Part shown: positions 43-6,737 of the stretch, one piece after another
Layout of the letters: every line of letters begins with the position of its first letter
Numbering within the stretch: the first letter of the stretch is position 1
Virus record (IMG/VR): IMGVR_UViG_2684622620_000011
Location: 1 to 9,345 of that record
From: a virus
Taxonomy: Duplodnaviria > Heunggongvirae > Uroviricota > Caudoviricetes
Length of the DNA: 9,345 nucleotides
Strand: one strand, 5' to 3'
Notes under the pieces: model-generated
What the model was told of the DNA's origin: nothing
Databases searched by the model: none
What the model saw: the letters and a program-made list of their open reading frames with translations, nothing else
Program-made: the position numbers and the translations under genes

Positions 43-933
43 TCAGGCTGCCAGATCATCGTTTCCGATGGAAGCATAATAAGCTTTTTCTGCTTCTGCC
101 GGAGGAGTATGGCCCAGCCTTCCCAGCAATCGTCGATTGTTATACCAGTCCACCCACGTTAGTGTGGCCAGTTCCACTTCTGCACGGTTTTTCCAGCTCT
201 TACGGTGTATTACCTCCGCTTTGTAAAGACCATTGATGCTCTCAGCCATCGCGTTGTCATACGAGTCGCCTGTACTCCCTGTTGATGCCAGTAATCCGGC
301 TTCTTTTAGTCGCTCCGTATAGGCCAGTGACACATACTGAGAGCCTTTATCGCTGTGATGGATGGTGCCAGACGGACGACGGGCCCACAACGCCTGCTCC
401 AGCGCATCCAGCACGAATGTCGTTTCCATAGACGATGAGACCCGCCACCCCACGATGTATCCGGCAAACACATCAATGATAAACGCCACATAGACGAAGC
501 CCTGCCATGTGCTGACGTAAGTAAAATCAGCCACCCACAGCTGGTCAGGTCGTTCTGCCACGAACTGACGGTTTACGCGGTCGCCTGCGGCAACGGCTTT
601 CCGGCTGATGGTCGTACGGACCTTTTTACCCCGGAGAACACCGGCAAGTCCCATAACCGCCATGAGACGTGCCACTGTACATCTGGCCACCCTGATTCCT
701 TCCCGTAACAACTGACGCCAGACTTTACGCACACCGTACACCTGATGATTTTCATCGTATACGCGCTGTATCTCTCTCTTCAGCCAGTCGTCGTGCTGCG
801 CACGGGCACTGCGTTTATCCGGATGATGTCGCTGTTGCTGACAATGGTAATACGTTGACGGGGCAATATGCAGTTCGCTGCATACCGGTCCGACCCCGTA
901 CTGCTCACGCAGCTTATCCAGCAGTGGCATCAT
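43..933 (-). CDS. IS3-family transposase OrfB (DDE/integrase catalytic domain), 296 aa
   Basis: ATG start overlaps the orfA stop by 4 nt (ATGA). Protein shows integrase-core hallmarks (W..DFTY, HSD.GSQY, ...[10 protein letters not shown]). Identical to the ORF at 8413..9303. Confidence 0.9.
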
Positions 934-1256
934 TTTTTCCAGAGGCGGTCGAACTCCGCCTTCGCAAAATAAGCGGAAGCCTGGCGAAGGATATCGTTAC
1001 TGCGGCGCAGTTCACGATTTTCACGTTCCAGCTCTTTCAGACGCTGACGTTCAGCGCTGGTGAGCCCACCATCACCGCCCCCGGTATCCCGCTCATGCTG
1101 GCGAACCCAGACACGCAGAGTCTCCGGCGTACAGCCAATCTTTGGGGCAATGGAACAAATTGCCGCCCACTGTGAGTCATATTCATCCTGACTTTCCAGA
1201 ACCATACGAATCGCCCGCTGACGGACTTCGGGGGAAAAACGAGTATTTTTAGTCAT
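930..1256 (-). CDS. IS3-family transposase OrfA (HTH and leucine-zipper DNA-binding subunit), 108 aa
   Basis: Starts [22 protein letters not shown]... with a helix-turn-helix region and a heptad Leu repeat ([18 protein letters not shown]). Identical to the ORF at 8090..8416. Confidence 0.9.
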
Positions 1257-1285
1257 CCTGTTTACCTCTTTCTCAGGGAGTTTAG

Positions 1286-1310
1286 TCTCCAGGATTTCCG
1301 GGGCGGTTCA
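1286..1310. repeat. Terminal inverted repeat of the left IS copy (orfA-proximal end)
   Basis: Reverse complement reads TGAACCGCCCCGGAAATCCTGGAGA, an imperfect match to 1..25. Confidence 0.8.
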
Positions 1311-1619
1311 AATTGAAGTAAGTTCATTTTTAGGTGAAGGAGTGATATCTTCGCTTCCAAAGATCATATCTTGGTATTGTGCCCAATTTTGGCGAATTTC
1401 GAAATACATATCAACATCATAATCCTGCCCTCTTAGTTCATCATCTGAAGATATATTCAATGTCTTTTTGAGACCGATGATGTTAAAGATCCACTTCTTA
1501 CCACCTTTAATGAAGTATGCCCCAGTATATGCCTCTTCATCTGGTACAGCCTCATAACCTAAATTTAATGCTAATTGTATCTGTTCTGCTAATGTAAAAG
1601 GCTCTTTCCATCCACTCAT
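1308..1619 (-). CDS. Hypothetical small protein (103 aa as read), probably 3'-truncated by the IS insertion
   Basis: ATG at 1619..1617 with an AGGTAGGT Shine-Dalgarno-like sequence upstream. The in-frame stop TGA is formed by the last 3 nt of the IS terminus (1308..1310), so the native C-terminus is probably missing. AT-rich codon usage like the neighbouring 221-aa gene. No recognisable domain. Confidence 0.55.
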   Translation of the reverse strand: MSGWKEPFTLAEQIQLALNLGYEAVPDEEAYTGAYFIKGGKKWIFNIIGLKKTLNISSDDELRGQDYDVDMYFEIRQNWAQYQDMIFGSEDITPSPKNELTSI

Positions 1620-1707
1620 AGCTTATTACCTACCTGTGAACCTGTTTGCTGCATGAAAAACAATATAATAAAGCGTTATTGAAGACTATGATCCAAGTAA
1701 ATTTAAT

Positions 1708-1730
1708 CAAATACGTTTATAACGTATTTG
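1708..1730. promoter_or_regulatory. Perfect 10-bp inverted repeat with a 3-bp spacer (CAAATACGTT-TAT-AACGTATTTG), candidate operator
   Basis: Arms 1708..1717 and 1721..1730 are exact reverse complements. It lies about 90 nt upstream of the 1619 start codon, in the 320-bp intergenic region between the two AT-rich genes. Confidence 0.35.
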
Positions 1731-1939
1731 CCTAAACAACTTCCAACGTATGATCCGCTTCTCGCTCTCAGCAGACCTTTATCTGCAGGTGCTTGTCTGC
1801 TGTGTTCCAGAAGCAGATATTATTATATAACTCTTTAACCCATGTATGACAAAATATTCTTGGAGCTTATTAAAACTTCATACGTCTAAATCACCTCTTC
1901 ATTAGTGAATCAATAATTGTATAGTTAAAATGTAACACT

Positions 1940-2605
1940 TTATTTTTTATGATTAACTTGCTTTGCTAAAGAGCTATAAATCATATCAACCAAAACATAT
2001 TTTTCGCATTCCCAAGGTTCACTAATAGATGGGTTTACTAAGTCTGGCTTCCCCCCCATTAGTGTATGAACATGCGAATAAATACCTATTCTTTCTGCGA
2101 GCTGCATTATTTTTATTTGATGTTCTGGTGGGAGCATTTTGTTTTTAAACCATGTTGTAAATATATGCTTGGTAAGTTCCTTAGTACAAACAAACCATTC
2201 ACCTTGACGTCTTTCGTTGCTAAATTTTTCATGAAGATAGTTTTCTTTTTCTGAACCACCTGGTTCCAAAGCGTGTAATATTAATTGACCAAATGCACCT
2301 GTCTGCAGGTTAGACAACCTTTTTAGCACATTATTGGAACGCCCTATTTTCACATAAAGTCCCGAGTAAGGGTTATTTTTATCTGAAGAACCGGCCCAAG
2401 TATCAGGCACTTGTAAAATATAATAAATACTACTTACTTTCCCACTCGATACATTATTTGCCCAAATCTGCCATTCTTCCATCCAGCTTTTTGCATCTTC
2501 TCTCGTGTCAAAGGCATGACTTGTATAGTAAAATTCACCAGTATCCAAGAACATATCGAAAACATATTTGCCATTCTCTATAATTCTTAAGTTGTCGGCT
2601 TTCAT
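1940..2605 (-). CDS. T5orf172/MUG113-domain (GIY-YIG superfamily) protein, 221 aa, with N- and C-terminal extensions of unknown function
   Basis: Central motifs IYYIL...GLYVKIGRSNNVLKRLSNLQTG...YLHEKFSNERRQGEWF fit the T5orf172 pattern (G-x-Y-K-I-G, R-x-x-x-L, H-x-x-F...R-x-GEWF). ATG at 2605 with a GAGA-type ribosome-binding site. Gene and flanks are strongly AT-rich compared with the rest of the window. Confidence 0.75.
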   Translation of the reverse strand: MKADNLRIIENGKYVFDMFLDTGEFYYTSHAFDTREDAKSWMEEWQIWANNVSSGKVSSIYYILQVPDTWAGSSDKNNPYSGLYVKIGRSNNVLKRLSNLQTGAFGQLILHALEPGGSEKENYLHEKFSNERRQGEWFVCTKELTKHIFTTWFKNKMLPPEHQIKIMQLAERIGIYSHVHTLMGGKPDLVNPSISEPWECEKYVLVDMIYSSLAKQVNHKK

Positions 2606-2809
2606 GGAAGTTTCTCACAAAGTTACAGGAATATATAAAAACTTTACTACGCTTAGTATATATTACCACCTGATTATGTATTATTTGATTTACACAACTT
2701 ATTGCTAGTAATAACGGTTTTGATGTAATCTTCTCATCCCAAACTAACCTTCAAAATAGATTTAATCTAAATTATATCAAAATATGCTCTCAGTTAAGAT
2801 GGCTTATTT

Positions 2810-3007
2810 TTAATCAGTTAGAGGATCAACCTGATTTTCTCTAATAAGATTTCGTAACGCAGTACGAGCAGCCGCGACTTCTGTCATTCCATTTAGAACC
2901 ACGCTGGAATGCCCTCCTCTAACCCCAAAGACTGTGACCATATCCTCTTCACGGAAGTATTCTGCTTCATACTGAAGGCCATCTTTCTCTACGCGAATAT
3001 ATGACAT
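2810..3007 (-). CDS. Hypothetical small protein, 65 aa
   Basis: ATG at 3007 preceded by GAGG about 6-9 nt upstream. Composition is like the phage backbone, not the AT-rich block. No recognisable motif. Confidence 0.5.
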   Translation of the reverse strand: MSYIRVEKDGLQYEAEYFREEDMVTVFGVRGGHSSVVLNGMTEVAAARTALRNLIRENQVDPLTD

Positions 3008-3633
3008 AACAACCTCATTTTATTATCTTTTGTTTGAATGATATATCCACAAAATAATTTAAGCAATCTCGCCCAAGACGGTACGCCAAGCTTGCCTTGT
3101 AAGTATACTGTAAATATTCCGATAAAACTAATCATTCGCTTTTAGCGCATGTCCAAAAAATGGTTCAGGTATCCTATCGTGCCAATATTCGCTCCTCACT
3201 CATAGCGGCTTTCAGGCAAGTTAACTAGTCCGCTCGGTGCCATATAGAGCCATGGTTATTAACAGCAGGGAATAATTCCACACTGAAATTAAATGTCTAC
3301 CTTTTACAGTAGAAATAGTTCCTCCAGGACACTATCCATTGCCGGGCACAATCACTCGGGGTATAACGATATAAAATATGTTCATGATAGTGCAGGTTCG
3401 TATATTAAGTTCAGCAGCGAAAACATGCCTTACAGGTTTCCGGTTTTGGGAGCGTCGTTACAGGATCCTGTGCATACCGTTCCCATCTGTTGAATTAAAG
3501 GTTTCACAGCCTTTGCCGATATCACCTTTTACCTTGCCTGTGATGCGTTCAGTGCTCAGCGTTGTTTACTGTAGCTCTCGGAACTGATTACAGACCGCGT
3601 CTTAAAAACCAATCCTTACTCTAAAGGGAATTC

Positions 3634-4734: not shown

Positions 4735-5523
4735 TCAAAATGCTGAATCAGCAACGGATACAACCGACTTTTTCCCCATTACCATCAATTTATCCAGCGT
4801 CATACTTCGCAGGTTGTCGCTGTGGATCACCAGATACCCTGCCCGCTCAGCGATCTCTTTGAAAGCGTCAAACGTCATCAGATGTTCGCCTTTGGCAACA
4901 TGGCGCATCCTGGTCACTTTTCCATTTTTGATAGTGGTGATAAAAGAAAAATCTGGAATGGTTGGCTGATTTTCATCGAGTAGCAGGCAGTGGATGTATT
5001 CAATCGCCTCTAACATTTGCGTCTGTGACAGTTGTTCTATGTGAGAGACGGCGAAGCGTTGATGAATCATGGTGTAGGCATCGGGATACATCATGCCTTT
5101 CTTACCGACCAGCATATTAACGGCATCACGTAAGGGAGTACGGTCATCGGTAGTTGTACTCCGCCTCTCTGGACGCTGTCTAAAATAACAATCTTCCAGC
5201 TTTTCGAAAACTTCCCAGGCCTGTTCTGTTTCCAGCATTTTGGCATGGCGAGCTGCGCCGCGTTCTGTCCAGAGAATGAGGGATCGGGTATGTTTAGCAA
5301 CTGACTGACTATCTGTCAGTCTGTTTTTGAAGTCGCGTAATTCATTACCTTCCAGCTTAAAAAAATGCTTTCCTACGACAAATCTGGCGATGTTGCGCTT
5401 GAAGTTTTGCTGGATACCATTTACTTCCGTGCCATACAAACTGGCAAGCAATTCAGTAGTGATGACGGGAAGTTGGTTATGATGTAGCGGAGAAAGGGAT
5501 TCCGCAGATATTTGGATTGTCAT
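4735..5523 (-). CDS. Phage anti-repressor-like regulatory protein (ORF6N/KilA-type N-terminal domain), about 262 aa
   Basis: The N-terminal region (...ELLASLYGTEVNGIQQNFKRNIARFVVGKHFFKLEGNELRDF...WTERGAARHAKML...) resembles ORF6N-type anti-repressor domains. Start chosen at ATG 5523 (MTIQ...), which has GTGAGG 8 nt upstream. The ORF track extends the frame to 5571, but that start is a TTG; another ATG at 5553 has poorer spacing. Confidence 0.65.
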   Translation of the reverse strand: MTIQISAESLSPLHHNQLPVITTELLASLYGTEVNGIQQNFKRNIARFVVGKHFFKLEGNELRDFKNRLTDSQSVAKHTRSLILWTERGAARHAKMLETEQAWEVFEKLEDCYFRQRPERRSTTTDDRTPLRDAVNMLVGKKGMMYPDAYTMIHQRFAVSHIEQLSQTQMLEAIEYIHCLLLDENQPTIPDFSFITTIKNGKVTRMRHVAKGEHLMTFDAFKEIAERAGYLVIHSDNLRSMTLDKLMVMGKKSVVSVADSAF

Positions 5524-5683
5524 CGCAGTGGCCTCACTTAGTGTTTTTTTCATCACCACCAGCGACGCCAATCATCTGGTGGTGAACTGTGCAGGGTTGG
5601 CGTAACCGGCTAAGTGAACCCGGCGCTTCCGCAGAAGCCCCCACACAGCCCACCATAATGCGAATGTGGCCGTGCCTAACACA

Positions 5684-5707
5684 TAAAAAAACCGCTAACG
5701 CGGCTAT
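5684..5707 (-). terminator. Candidate rho-independent terminator (minus strand) downstream of the small-gene operon
   Basis: Minus strand reads AGCCGCGTTAGCGG followed by TTTTTTT. The stem is short (4 G-C pairs plus possible G.U/A-U) with a 4-nt loop and a T7 tract, about 100 nt after the stop of the 5796..6017 ORF. Confidence 0.3.
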
Positions 5708-5795
5708 GCGTCACTTAGATATCCGGGACGCCAATCCCGGCAACCGATTTTGCGGCTGCGCGGAAACTATAGCCCCGGGCTTTTTCTAAGTCAAT

Positions 5796-6017
5796 TCAAT
5801 CAACTTCAAACCTCCGGTGTTCACATTCCATACACTCAACGGGAACATCATCGCGATGCAAGTCCACATATCCGACCCGCTTATACAACTCAATAATGTC
5901 CGGTAACGTGACCAGATGTTTTTCCGGTTCCAACACCTCAGCCCTGGTTACTTTGTAATCTGAAATATAGAGCACTATCCGCCCGTTCCGTGGTAACTCC
6001 AGTTTATCGCCAAACAT
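5796..6017 (-). CDS. Hypothetical small phage protein, 73 aa
   Basis: ATG at 6017 with GGAGGGAAAGGA Shine-Dalgarno sequence immediately upstream. Last gene of the minus-strand operon. No recognisable domain; C-terminus has a CxxC (CMEC) pair. Confidence 0.6.
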   Translation of the reverse strand: MFGDKLELPRNGRIVLYISDYKVTRAEVLEPEKHLVTLPDIIELYKRVGYVDLHRDDVPVECMECEHRRFEVD

Positions 6018-6091
6018 GTCCTTTCCCTCCGGGAAACCAATGATATTGACGATATTACACCCACAAAGATTCGTTTTACGTCACTCCGCAA

Positions 6092-6208
6092 TCACCATAC
6101 ATACGTACCAATCCGTACATTCCCACCACAAAAATGGCATTCGGCGGGCACTGGTAATGGATTTTTAACGCGTGCTATTGCCTTGCGACGTATTTTCAAT
6201 TCACTCAT
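6092..6208 (-). CDS. Possible unannotated small ORF, 38 aa (MSELKIRRKAIARVKNPLPVPAECHFCGGNVRIGTYVW)
   Basis: ATG at 6208..6206 overlaps the stop of the upstream ORF (ATGA) and is preceded by GGGAGG 5 nt upstream. Below the 60-aa cutoff of the ORF track. Contains one CxxC pair. Translated by hand. Confidence 0.35.
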   Translation of the reverse strand: MSELKIRRKAIARVKNPLPVPAECHFCGGNVRIGTYVW

Positions 6209-6429
6209 ACAGCCTCCCTGCTCTCAAACGGGCGAATATTGGTTGGTTCTCCACACGGAATGGCCCAACCCAGCCAGGTAAATATTTTCAGATCACACAT
6301 CGCGTCATACCGTTCGCCCGGATTCACATCCACCATGCTGCAGGCAATTTCATATTGTTCACCATTATCAGTCAGTGCGATCTGGTCATTAATAAACCGG
6401 GGCACAAATGCAAGAAAAAGCTCTTTCAT
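6205..6429 (-). CDS. Hypothetical small phage protein, 74 aa
   Basis: ATG at 6429 with GGAGGA Shine-Dalgarno sequence; ATGA overlap with the upstream gene, consistent with translational coupling. Confidence 0.6.
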   Translation of the reverse strand: MKELFLAFVPRFINDQIALTDNGEQYEIACSMVDVNPGERYDAMCDLKIFTWLGWAIPCGEPTNIRPFESREAV

Positions 6430-6737
6430 GAAATCCTCCGCTCAAAATAAACAAACTGATTCACCGCTCCGATCGGCATTTCGAGTTTTTCCGCGATATC
6501 CTGGCGATTAATACCCGACTGATGTAATTCCCTTGCCAGCTCGACATCTTCCTGTAGGTATTTCGCTGACTGGTGATAATTACCCCGCAGATACATACAG
6601 ATTTTCAGCTCGCGCGCTTTTGTGCGTACCGACGCAGCGGTTCTGCCAATAAGCTGCCCTATACTTTCAACTGTCATGCTGCCTGCACATTGTTTGATGA
6701 TTACGACTTCCGCACGCACCCACCGTTTGTATTTCAT
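6426..6737 (-). CDS. Hypothetical phage protein, 103 aa, possibly DNA-binding (two helix-turn-helix-like segments)
   Basis: ATG at 6737 with GGAG upstream; ATGA overlap with the upstream gene. Segments SIGQLIGRTAASVRTKAREL and NRQDIAEKLEMPIGAVNQFV look HTH-like by eye only. Confidence 0.55.
   Translation of the reverse strand: MKYKRWVRAEVVIIKQCAGSMTVESIGQLIGRTAASVRTKARELKICMYLRGNYHQSAKYLQEDVELARELHQSGINRQDIAEKLEMPIGAVNQFVYFERRIS

What the first reader, a model, noticed from the sequence alone, without database searches (positions are those of the whole stretch)
6092..6208. Unlisted 38-aa ORF with a near-consensus Shine-Dalgarno sequence inside an apparent intergenic gap
The 187-bp gap between the 6205..6429 and 5796..6017 genes contains an ATG (6208..6206) that overlaps the upstream stop codon in the ATGA arrangement and is preceded by GGGAGG at ideal spacing. 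It encodes MSELKIRRKAIARVKNPLPVPAECHFCGGNVRIGTYVW. The gap is therefore probably not non-coding.
Basis: seen in the sequence. Interest (0 to 1): 0.4.

Follow-up and report, generated by a model that had tools for sequence, protein, structure and literature searches.

The report
Truncated relic of a phage zinc-finger gene
The 38-codon reading frame is real, but it is the leftover first quarter of a roughly 150-residue phage zinc-finger gene (DUF3268 family) whose remainder has been lost, and it is evolving like a dead gene fragment rather than like a new small gene.

Summary
There is an ORF at 6092..6208 (-) whose ATG shares ATGA with the stop of the upstream 74-aa gene.

It is not a chance ORF. 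Residues 5-36 match the N-termini of 141-204-aa DUF3268/PF11672 "zinc-finger-containing" phage proteins. E-values are 8e-6 to 7e-5 against 1.84 billion proteins, and tblastn hits fall on annotated family genes.

Similarity ends at Thr35 (6104). The last three codons (YVW) and the stop are foreign to the family. No frame downstream resembles the missing 100 or more codons. Only the first CxxC of eight conserved Cys/His positions survives.

Among closely related E. coli prophage copies the relic behaves neutrally:
- pN/pS is 0.92, against about 0.20 in the flanking genes.
- The nonsynonymous:synonymous polymorphism ratio is 11:6, against 1:10 in the upstream gene.
- The commonest allele has lost Cys24.
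- Other copies carry ATG>TTG, ±1 frameshifts in a T5 run, or an IS insertion.
- Two other prophage lineages break the same gene after codon 3 or about codon 15.

The Shine-Dalgarno sequence lies inside the upstream gene's last codons, so its preservation needs no selection on the relic. The relic may well be translated. Verdict: an ordinary pseudogene fragment of low interest.

The parts
6213..6218 (-). GGGAGG Shine-Dalgarno sequence, 4 nt upstream of the ATG. It is embedded in the last codons (..S R E A V) of the upstream 74-aa gene.
   Evidence: Sequence read. The same GGGAGGCTGTATGAGTGAA is kept in E. whittamii L007 and in E. coli L140, where different DNA follows.
6205..6208 (-). ATGA overlap: the ATG of the relic (6208..6206) and the TGA stop of the 74-aa gene (6207..6205).
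   Evidence: In L029 the A is T (GTT TGA). That change is synonymous in the 74-aa gene and turns the relic's ATG into TTG.
6104..6208 (-). Codons 1-35: the 5' relic of a DUF3268/PF11672 (phrog_1934) zinc-finger gene. It contains only the first CxxC knuckle (Cys24, Cys27) and carries a 12-nt deletion after codon 6 or 7 (exact placement ambiguous) relative to intact relatives.
   Evidence: phmmer against 1.84e9 representatives gave P0009, P0010 and P0012 at E 8e-6 to 7e-5, all PF11672. tblastn hit annotated 'zinc-finger-containing protein' genes.
6092..6103 (-). Three codons foreign to the family (TAT GTA TGG = YVW) plus the TGA stop. This is the junction left by the loss of the rest of the gene.
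   Evidence: Full-length relatives continue ...CGGNVRIGT-HQELYGRDFSDWPY... where the window reads ...CGGNVRIGT-YVW*. The DNA alignment needs 8-nt and 3-nt gaps here and then stops.
6018..6091 (-). A 74-nt spacer with no detectable coding or RNA signal. It carries the GGAGGG Shine-Dalgarno sequence (6030..6025) of the downstream 73-aa gene.
   Evidence: No similarity to the family in any frame. No Rfam match and no promoter or terminator in the gap. RNA fold z = -0.20.
6205..6429 (-). Upstream 74-aa gene (phrog_2241, WP_000661082.1), under strong purifying selection.
   Evidence: pN = 0 with pS = 0.106 against the ST131 allele. Polymorphisms are 1 nonsynonymous to 10 synonymous.
5796..6017 (-). 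Downstream 73-aa gene (phrog_340).

Best explanation
**What it is.** The ORF is a pseudogene fragment. An ancestral prophage carried a full-length gene of about 140-160 codons from the DUF3268 (PF11672, phrog_1934) zinc-finger family. That gene lay directly downstream of the 74-aa early gene and was translationally coupled to it through the ATGA overlap.

**What happened to it.** A deletion or illegitimate recombination removed everything after codon 35. That is at least 100 codons, including the second CxxC pair and the C-terminal Cys/His positions. The 5' stub was joined to unrelated sequence, which supplies three codons (YVW) and a TGA.

**Why the start signals survive.** The Shine-Dalgarno sequence and the start codon lie within the end of the upstream gene, which is under selection, so they are preserved for that reason.

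**Shown versus inferred.** The homology, the truncation point, the loss of the zinc ligands, the neutral substitution pattern and the disrupted alleles are shown. Inferred: the stub is probably still translated at some level as a 38-aa peptide, the peptide has no selected function, and the only likely effect of reading it is passive, namely ribosome traffic across part of the gap before the 73-aa gene.
For: **1. Homology found without prior selection of targets.** phmmer of the 38-aa peptide against 1.84e9 representatives returned its own alleles and then P0009 (153 aa, E 8.1e-6), P0010 (204 aa, 3.0e-5) and P0012 (157 aa, 7.0e-5). The match covers query residues 5-36 and lies at their N-terminal regions. 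All three are PF11672 at E 1e-29 to 1e-36. In tblastn, 15 of 18 plasmid hits lie on genes annotated 'zinc-finger-containing protein'. Phage hits lie on 156-157-aa PF11672 proteins.

**2. Length.** Of the 105 complete ORFs that carry the RVKNPLPxPxxC motif in viral contigs, 92 are 135-200 aa. Only the three complete E. coli-prophage copies are 38 aa, plus one cut off by a contig end.

**3. Break point.** L076, L055 and L064 read CGGNVRIGT-HQELYGRDF..., whereas the window reads CGGNVRIGT-YVW*. A family HMM aligns residues 7-35 only, and every other frame and segment down to 6000 scores below zero. DNA of the tail scores no better than shuffles against the rest of ten full-length genes.

**4. Zinc ligands.** The conserved positions are C27, C30, C56, C59, H66, C121, H122 and C131 (L076 numbering). 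Only the first two are present.

**5. Selection.**
- Window against the ST131 allele: pN 0.069, pS 0.075. Pooled flanking genes give pN 0.012 and pS 0.060.
- The nonsynonymous rate per site is 6-fold higher (Fisher p = 0.0014), while the synonymous rate is equal (p = 0.67).
- Across 16 copies the N:S polymorphism count is 11:6 in the relic, not different from neutral (p = 0.17). It is 1:10 in the 74-aa gene (p = 1.6e-6 against neutral; relic against the 74-aa gene, p = 0.006).

**6. Disrupted alleles.**
- Cys24>Tyr in the allele that falls in the 90-95% identity band, 416 of 448 genomes.
- ATG>TTG in L029.
- T5>T4 and T5>T6 frameshifts in L128 and L129.
- An IS inserted in L130, L131 and H110.

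**7. Other break points in the same gene at the same locus.** These lie after codon 3 in E. whittamii and after about codon 15 in L140-type E. coli, 4 genomes.
Against: - The ORF stays open, at the same length, in most copies seen. All of these copies are at least 90% identical, so this carries little weight.
- Polymorphism-based omega is about 0.5 rather than 1. The numbers are small and weak constraint cannot be excluded.
- The two frameshift alleles each come from one read-set assembly and sit in a homopolymer, so they could be sequencing errors.
- Seven of the eight ST131-allele substitutions cluster in 25 nt. This could be one recombination patch rather than independent neutral mutations.
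- No intact ancestor at this exact locus was found, so the deletion event itself is reconstructed from relatives only 57-76% identical over the shared part.
- Translation was not and cannot be tested here.
Confidence: 0.85

Rival explanations
1. The stub is a genuine, selected small protein: a 38-aa zinc-knuckle or basic peptide, domesticated from the N-terminus of the DUF3268 protein and expressed by translational coupling with the 74-aa gene.
For: The Shine-Dalgarno sequence, ATG and ATGA coupling are intact. The ORF is open with the same stop in most copies. Some gene callers predict it. Polymorphism-based omega of about 0.5 is not formally 1.
Against: The commonest allele changes 6 of 38 residues, including one of the two cysteines. 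pN/pS is 0.92 against that allele, compared with about 0.2 in neighbours. Start-codon loss, frameshifts and an IS insertion are tolerated. Other lineages dispense with it altogether. The start signals are explained by the upstream gene. No 38-aa form was found outside the group of near-identical E. coli prophages.
Confidence: 0.07
2. The peptide is irrelevant, but the act of translating the stub is useful. It would keep ribosomes on the early-operon mRNA across the 187-nt gap, limiting Rho-dependent polarity or mRNA decay and so helping expression of the 73-aa gene.
For: The ORF covers 117 of the 187 nt and ends 74 nt before the next ATG. No terminator or promoter is predicted in the gap, so the 73-aa gene is probably read from the same transcript. 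Sequence-independent selection for an open frame would be compatible with a high dN/dS.
Against: The frameshifted alleles end at other stops (43 and 42 codons), and the IS-interrupted allele separates the two genes entirely. The L140 and E. whittamii arrangements have stubs of 36 and 16 codons of different sequence. Any short ORF therefore seems to be tolerated, and nothing shows it is needed. There is no direct evidence of polarity.
Confidence: 0.06
3. A chance ORF in a true non-coding spacer, with an accidental Shine-Dalgarno-like sequence.
For: ORFs of this length are very common in the window: 107 of at least 30 aa.
Against: There is significant, position-specific homology to the N-termini of PF11672 proteins in a search of 1.84e9 proteins. 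There is also DNA-level colinearity with full-length genes, starting from the ATG itself for L096 and L066.
Confidence: 0.02

Closest known systems
DUF3268 / Pfam PF11672 'zinc-finger-containing domain' proteins (PHROG phrog_1934). Examples: Pseudomonas phage F116 gp23 (YP_164287.1, 156 aa), Erwinia phage Fifi011 gp43 (XHG84479.1), Cobetia phage Carin1 gp22 (XFA12802.1), and viral-contig ORFs in L076, L055, L064, L096, L066 and L040.
   Same: Residues 5-36 of the ORF align with their N-terminal segment, (S)RKAxARVKNPLPxPxxCxxCGGxVRIGT. Identity over residues 8-36 is 46-76%. They occupy the same kind of genomic place, the early/replication-recombination region of temperate phages. L096 and L066 also start with ATGAGTGAA/ATGAGCGAA and have a 76-77% identical homologue of the window's 103-aa DNA-binding protein nearby.
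   Different: The window copy has 38 codons instead of 141-204. It lacks the second CxxC, the conserved His66 and the C-terminal C/H/C positions. It gets no Pfam hit at all at E <= 1 and no PHROG hit at E <= 0.01. The family itself has no known function and no solved structure.
Gene remnants in defective or mosaic prophages of E. coli (a general class; my own knowledge of cryptic-prophage pseudogenes).
   Same: A truncated 5' stub kept at a module boundary. Substitutions are neutral. IS insertions and alternative break points occur in sister prophages. The window's prophage segment is itself cut by two IS1203-like elements.
   Different: Nothing distinctive. The one noteworthy detail is that the stub keeps a functional-looking coupled start, because that start lies inside the upstream gene.
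Bona fide translationally coupled small phage genes with ATGA overlaps, as in lambdoid nin/early regions (my own knowledge).
   Same: ATGA stop-start overlap and a Shine-Dalgarno sequence inside the preceding gene.
   Different: Such genes are conserved with synonymous-site bias across diverged phages. This ORF is found only in copies at least 90% identical, and it shows pN/pS of about 0.9 together with disrupted alleles.

Membership tests
DUF3268 / PF11672 zinc-finger-containing protein (functional member) | Significant sequence similarity to family members | tested here: met
   Met for the N-terminal 29-32 residues only. E is 8e-6 to 7e-5 against P0009, P0010 and P0012 in a library of 1.84e9 proteins, and all three are PF11672. 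tblastn hits fall on annotated family genes.
DUF3268 / PF11672 zinc-finger-containing protein (functional member) | Reaches the Pfam gathering score for PF11672 (28.4 bits) | tested here: not met
   No Pfam family at E <= 1. In full-length proteins the Pfam model starts at about the first CxxC, so only about 12 residues of the stub overlap it.
DUF3268 / PF11672 zinc-finger-containing protein (functional member) | Full set of conserved Cys/His positions (C27, C30, C56, C59, H66, C121, H122, C131 in L076 numbering) | tested here: not met
   Only the first CxxC (Cys24, Cys27 of the stub) is present. Cys24 is Tyr in the commonest allele.
DUF3268 / PF11672 zinc-finger-containing protein (functional member) | Length of about 140-200 aa covering the whole domain | tested here: not met
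   38 aa, against 92 complete motif-bearing ORFs of 135-200 aa. No remnant of the rest in any frame downstream.
Pseudogene / gene relic | Truncated relative to intact homologues, with a junction foreign to the family | tested here: met
   Similarity ends at Thr35, and YVW* is not family sequence.
Pseudogene / gene relic | Relaxed selection compared with neighbouring genes | tested here: met
   pN/pS is 0.92 against about 0.20 in the flanks. N:S is 11:6 against 1:10 in the 74-aa gene, p = 0.006. The relic is not different from neutral, p = 0.17. The counts are small.
Pseudogene / gene relic | Disrupting variants tolerated in the population | tested here: met
   ATG>TTG (L029), ±1 frameshifts (L128, L129; single assemblies), IS insertion (L130, L131, H110), and replacement in L007 and L140.
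Pseudogene / gene relic | No translation or no function of the product | not testable with these tools
   Needs Ribo-seq, mass spectrometry and mutant phenotypes.
Known RNA family or regulatory element in the gap | Rfam match, promoter/terminator consensus, or unusually stable fold | tested here: not met
   No Rfam match within 6018..6208 at E <= 1. No promoter or terminator in the gap on the coding strand. Fold z = -0.20.

The most novel reading that the evidence does not exclude
The 38-aa stub is translated by coupling to the 74-aa gene and has acquired a role of its own. That role would be either as a basic or half-zinc-knuckle micro-protein, or as a sequence-independent 'ribosome bridge' that protects expression of the downstream 73-aa gene. 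Either way it would be an example of a gene fragment being recycled after truncation.
Probability: 0.1. Interest if true: 0.35.

Novelty: already known. Interest (0 to 1): 0.1.

Why it matters
It matters mainly for annotation. The 187-nt "gap" in this widespread E. coli prophage (about 450 of 5,426 complete genomes, including ST131) is a DUF3268 pseudogene stub. It is neither a missing small gene nor a regulatory spacer. It should be labelled as a pseudogene fragment rather than added to small-protein catalogues.

It also illustrates a trap for sequence-only readers. A near-consensus Shine-Dalgarno sequence and an ATGA overlap can be inherited from the preceding gene's coding sequence and therefore outlive the gene they once served. 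The three different break points seen behind the same start signal (codons 3, about 15 and 35) give a small, clean example of phage mosaic recombination at a gene boundary.

Tried and rejected
1. **Pfam, PHROGs and NCBIfam scans of the 38-aa peptide.** No hits. The peptide is too short and lies mostly N-terminal to the Pfam model.

2. **The search for homologous proteins and the search for related loci with the bare peptide.** Padding the query with XX gave only its own alleles.

3. **Search for an intact ancestor at this locus.**
   - blastn of the region against phages found nothing.
   - Distant blastn of the stub, of the L076 full-length gene and of the L140 stub against 5,426 E. coli genomes found only stubs or nothing.
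   - A genome-contig scan with the 74-aa neighbour gave one locus, E. whittamii, where a different cassette follows.
   - Allele-specific and CGGNVRIGTH patterns in viral and metagenome contigs gave only stubs or the already known L064-like genes.

4. **Residual homology after the break.** A colinear TGTATG---GTGATT match to the family's LYGRDF codons appears in the alignment. It is no better than shuffles, and the frame-shifted translation does not score against the family HMM. I treat it as unproven.

5. **The idea that the L140 stub joins the N- and C-termini of the family.** Only its first 15 or so residues resemble the family.

6. **Regulatory RNA, promoter or terminator in the gap.** Nothing found.

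7. **The family HMM E-value of 1.5e-15 for the stub.** I do not use it as evidence of homology, because the HMM's sequences were collected with a motif taken from the stub itself.

Full report
**1. The observation**

On the minus strand the window reads ...GAG AGC AGG GAG GCT GTA TGA GTG AAT TG....

- The upstream 74-aa gene (6205..6429) ends with TGA at 6207..6205.
- An ATG at 6208..6206 overlaps that stop as ATGA.
- GGGAGG lies at 6218..6213, with a 4-nt spacer before the ATG.
- The frame runs to TGA at 6094..6092 and encodes MSELKIRRKAIARVKNPLPVPAECHFCGGNVRIGTYVW.
- The gap between the annotated genes (6018..6204) is 187 nt.

All of this matches the finding. The only quibble is 'ideal spacing': four nucleotides is on the short side (my own knowledge).

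A 38-codon ORF is not remarkable alone, since the window has 107 ORFs of at least 30 aa. NCBI's PGAP does not call it in any annotated relative inspected. Other pipelines have deposited it as a hypothetical protein.

**2. The setting**

The window is a fragment of the early/replication region of an E. coli prophage. On the minus strand it reads, in order:

| Element | Coordinates | Evidence |
|---|---|---|
| DnaB-type helicase, C-terminal 204 aa only | 7421..8035 | |
| 136-aa gene | 6972..7382 | |
| 78-aa gene | 6734..6970 | |
| 103-aa gene (HTH / D5-like regulator) | 6426..6737 | |
| 74-aa gene | 6205..6429 | |
| the ORF | 6092..6208 | |
| 73-aa gene | 5796..6017 | |
| isrK / c4-type antisense RNA module | 5575..5772 | |
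| ORF6N antirepressor | 4735..5571 | |

Two inverted IS1203/IS629-like IS3-family elements bracket the fragment. The same stretch, at least 90% identical, occurs once in about 450 of 5,426 complete E. coli genomes, including ST131.

**3. What the ORF is**

- tblastn of the peptide against phage genomes hit the N-terminal part of 156-157-aa proteins: Cobetia phage Carin1 gp22 (E 1e-4), Achromobacter phage 2-1, Burkholderia phage Bups phi1, Pseudomonas phage F116 gp23 and Erwinia phage Fifi011 gp43. The three checked are PF11672/DUF3268 at E 2e-28 to 5e-37.
- Against plasmids, 15 of 18 hits fall on genes annotated 'zinc-finger-containing protein'.
- The unbiased test is phmmer against 1.84 billion cluster representatives. 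After the ORF's own alleles come P0009 (153 aa, E 8.1e-6), P0010 (204 aa, 3.0e-5) and P0012 (157 aa, 7.0e-5). Query residues 5-36 align to the segment just before and at the start of their PF11672 domain. The remaining three hits are repeat-rich, multi-stretch matches to unrelated long proteins.
- A degenerate DNA motif for RVKNPLPxPxxC recovered 120 viral-contig loci. Of the 105 complete ORFs carrying the motif, 92 are 135-200 aa. Only the E. coli-prophage copies are 38 aa.

The stub is therefore the 5' end of a DUF3268 gene.

**4. Where the gene breaks**

The best full-length relatives (L076, L055, L064) read ...RKATARVKNPLPAPSACRLCGGNVRIGT-HQELYGRDFSDWPYVYLCECCGAYVGLHPFT.... The window reads ...RKAIARVKNPLPVPAECHFCGGNVRIGT-YVW*.

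- DNA alignment is colinear up to the Thr35 codon (6106..6104). With L096 and L066 it starts at the ATG itself, and it shows a 12-nt deletion in the window after codon 6 or 7.
- Beyond Thr35 the alignment needs 8-nt and 3-nt gaps to reach a 12-nt match. The 89-nt tail as a whole scores no better than shuffles against the remainder of ten full-length genes.
- A family HMM aligns stub residues 7-35 only. All other frames and segments down to 6000 score below zero.
- At least 100 codons are missing, and only 86 nt separate Thr35 from the next gene's ATG.
- In the family alignment the positions at least 85% conserved as Cys or His are C27, C30, C56, C59, H66, C121, H122 and C131. The stub keeps the first two.

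**5. How it evolves**

*Window against the ST131-type allele (L002).* The stub has 8 substitutions in 117 nt. They cause P17L, A22V, E23K, C24Y, H25R and Y36D, and two of the eight count as synonymous by Nei-Gojobori.

| | pN | pS | pN/pS |
|---|---|---|---|
| Stub | 0.069 | 0.075 | 0.92 |
| Six flanking genes, pooled | 0.012 | 0.060 | 0.20 |

The nonsynonymous rate per site is 6-fold higher in the stub (p = 0.0014). The synonymous rates do not differ (p = 0.67).

*Across 16 copies.*

| | Variable changes | Nonsynonymous : synonymous | Test against neutrality |
|---|---|---|---|
| Stub (117 nt) | 17 | 11:6 | p = 0.17 |
| 74-aa gene (225 nt) | 11 | 1:10 | p = 1.6e-6 |

The stub differs from the 74-aa gene at p = 0.006. 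Polymorphism density in the stub is four times that of the two adjacent genes (p = 1.3e-4).

*Disrupted copies.*
- L029 has ATG>TTG through a change that is silent in the 74-aa gene.
- L128 and L129 carry -1 and +1 changes in the T5 run, giving 43- and 42-aa products.
- L130, L131 and H110 carry an IS3-family insertion inside the stub.

*Caveats.* The counts are small. Seven ST131 substitutions cluster in 25 nt and could represent one recombination patch. The frameshift alleles come from single read-set assemblies.

**6. Other break points behind the same start**

- In Escherichia whittamii (L007) the 74-aa gene is 99% identical and ends with the same GGGAGGCTGTATGAGTGAA. Homology stops after codon 3, and a different 117-aa gene follows.
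- In four E. coli genomes (L140 type) the identical 74-aa protein is followed by MSELKIRMNPSRKAI.... This still shows the family's NPSRKA segment but diverges after about codon 15, and a different 85-aa gene follows.
- In E24377A-type prophages the 74-aa gene is only 78% identical, while the stub and the 73-aa gene are 99-100% identical to the window.

The start of the former DUF3268 gene is thus a recurrent mosaic junction. The Shine-Dalgarno sequence and the ATGA belong to the conserved end of the 74-aa gene module, so their preservation says nothing about selection on the stub.

**7. Mechanism**

- *Shown:* a DUF3268 gene once followed the 74-aa gene, and everything after codon 35 was lost. 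The stub lacks the second half of the presumed four-cysteine zinc site and all C-terminal conserved residues. It accumulates amino-acid changes at the neutral rate.
- *Inferred:* because the coupled start is intact, ribosomes finishing the 74-aa gene probably re-initiate and make a 38-aa peptide at some level. That peptide is most likely a by-product.
- *Rivals:* a selected micro-protein (0.07), a sequence-independent ribosome bridge for the 73-aa gene (0.06), and a chance ORF (0.02, refuted by the homology).

**8. Comparison with what is known**

The parent family, DUF3268/PF11672 (phrog_1934), is widespread in temperate and virulent phages. tblastn found 567 phage records at E <= 1e-10. The family has no assigned function and no solved structure detectable by sequence. 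The stub fails every membership criterion except local similarity, so it is a fragment of a member and not a member. As a kind of object, a truncated prophage gene with a surviving start, it is ordinary.

**9. Verdict**

Nothing here is novel. Interest is 0.1.

Noticed in passing
window 5575-5794 (-): Rfam finds a complete P1/P7-type immI-like RNA module just upstream of the ORF6N antirepressor gene (4735..5571): isrK (5685-5759, 80 bits), C4 antisense RNA (5575-5660, 74.5 bits) and its a1/b1 target (5720-5772, 53 bits). It is preceded by a promoter-like TTGACT-17-TATAGT at 5794..5766. This is a known kind of element and none of it lies in the finding's gap.
   Followed up: partly
window 43-1256 (-) and 8090-9303 (+): Two copies of an IS3-family element, with identical OrfA and OrfB proteins in the two copies, lie in inverted orientation and bracket the 6.8-kb prophage fragment. 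PGAP names the relatives 'IS3-like element IS1203 family'. The right-hand copy cuts the DnaB-type helicase gene, leaving only its C-terminal 204 aa (7421..8035). No complete E. coli genome in the collection carries this dnaB-IS junction.
   Followed up: partly
window 6734-6970 (-): The 78-aa early gene is a phage-borne homologue of DNA polymerase III theta subunit (HolE-like). It matches phrog_1105 at E 1e-27. The Pfam DNA_pol3_theta match is only sub-threshold, E 0.003.
   Followed up: no
window 6135-6159 (-), compared with L002: Seven of the eight differences between the window and the ST131-type allele of the stub are packed into 25 nt (codons 17-25), while the flanks are 97-100% identical. 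This could be a short recombination patch from a diverged copy rather than independent mutations.
   Followed up: partly
L007 2722-2775; L140 2410-2520 (-): Behind the same GGGAGGCTGTATGAGTGAA, other prophages carry different mini-ORFs. E. whittamii has a 16-codon ORF, MSEILPFAIVLIALVT. Four E. coli genomes have a 36-aa ORF, MSELKIRMNPSRKAIKFAQCVLQMAEGECYIKECHG. Each is followed by a different gene cassette. This marks a recurrent mosaic junction at the former DUF3268 start.
   Followed up: yes
L003 / L047 compared with window 6205-6429: In E24377A-type prophages the 74-aa gene is only 78% identical in protein (82% in DNA), whereas the adjacent stub and the 73-aa gene are 99-100% identical to the window. 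A recombination boundary therefore coincides with the ATGA junction.
   Followed up: partly
L130 1594-2944; H110: In some E. coli genomes an IS3-family element (ISEc52-like according to PGAP) sits inside the stub after codon 26, giving a 30-aa ORF (P0007).
   Followed up: partly
window 1308-1619 (-), 1940-2605 (-), 2810-3007 (-): Three ORFs (103, 221 and 65 aa) on the left side of the fragment have no NCBIfam match. This left part (window about 1260-3200) seems to differ from the GIY-YIG, HNH-endonuclease and 561-nt genes annotated at the corresponding position (locus 768-3582) of the otherwise identical CFSAN061769 prophage. I did not align the two.
   Followed up: no
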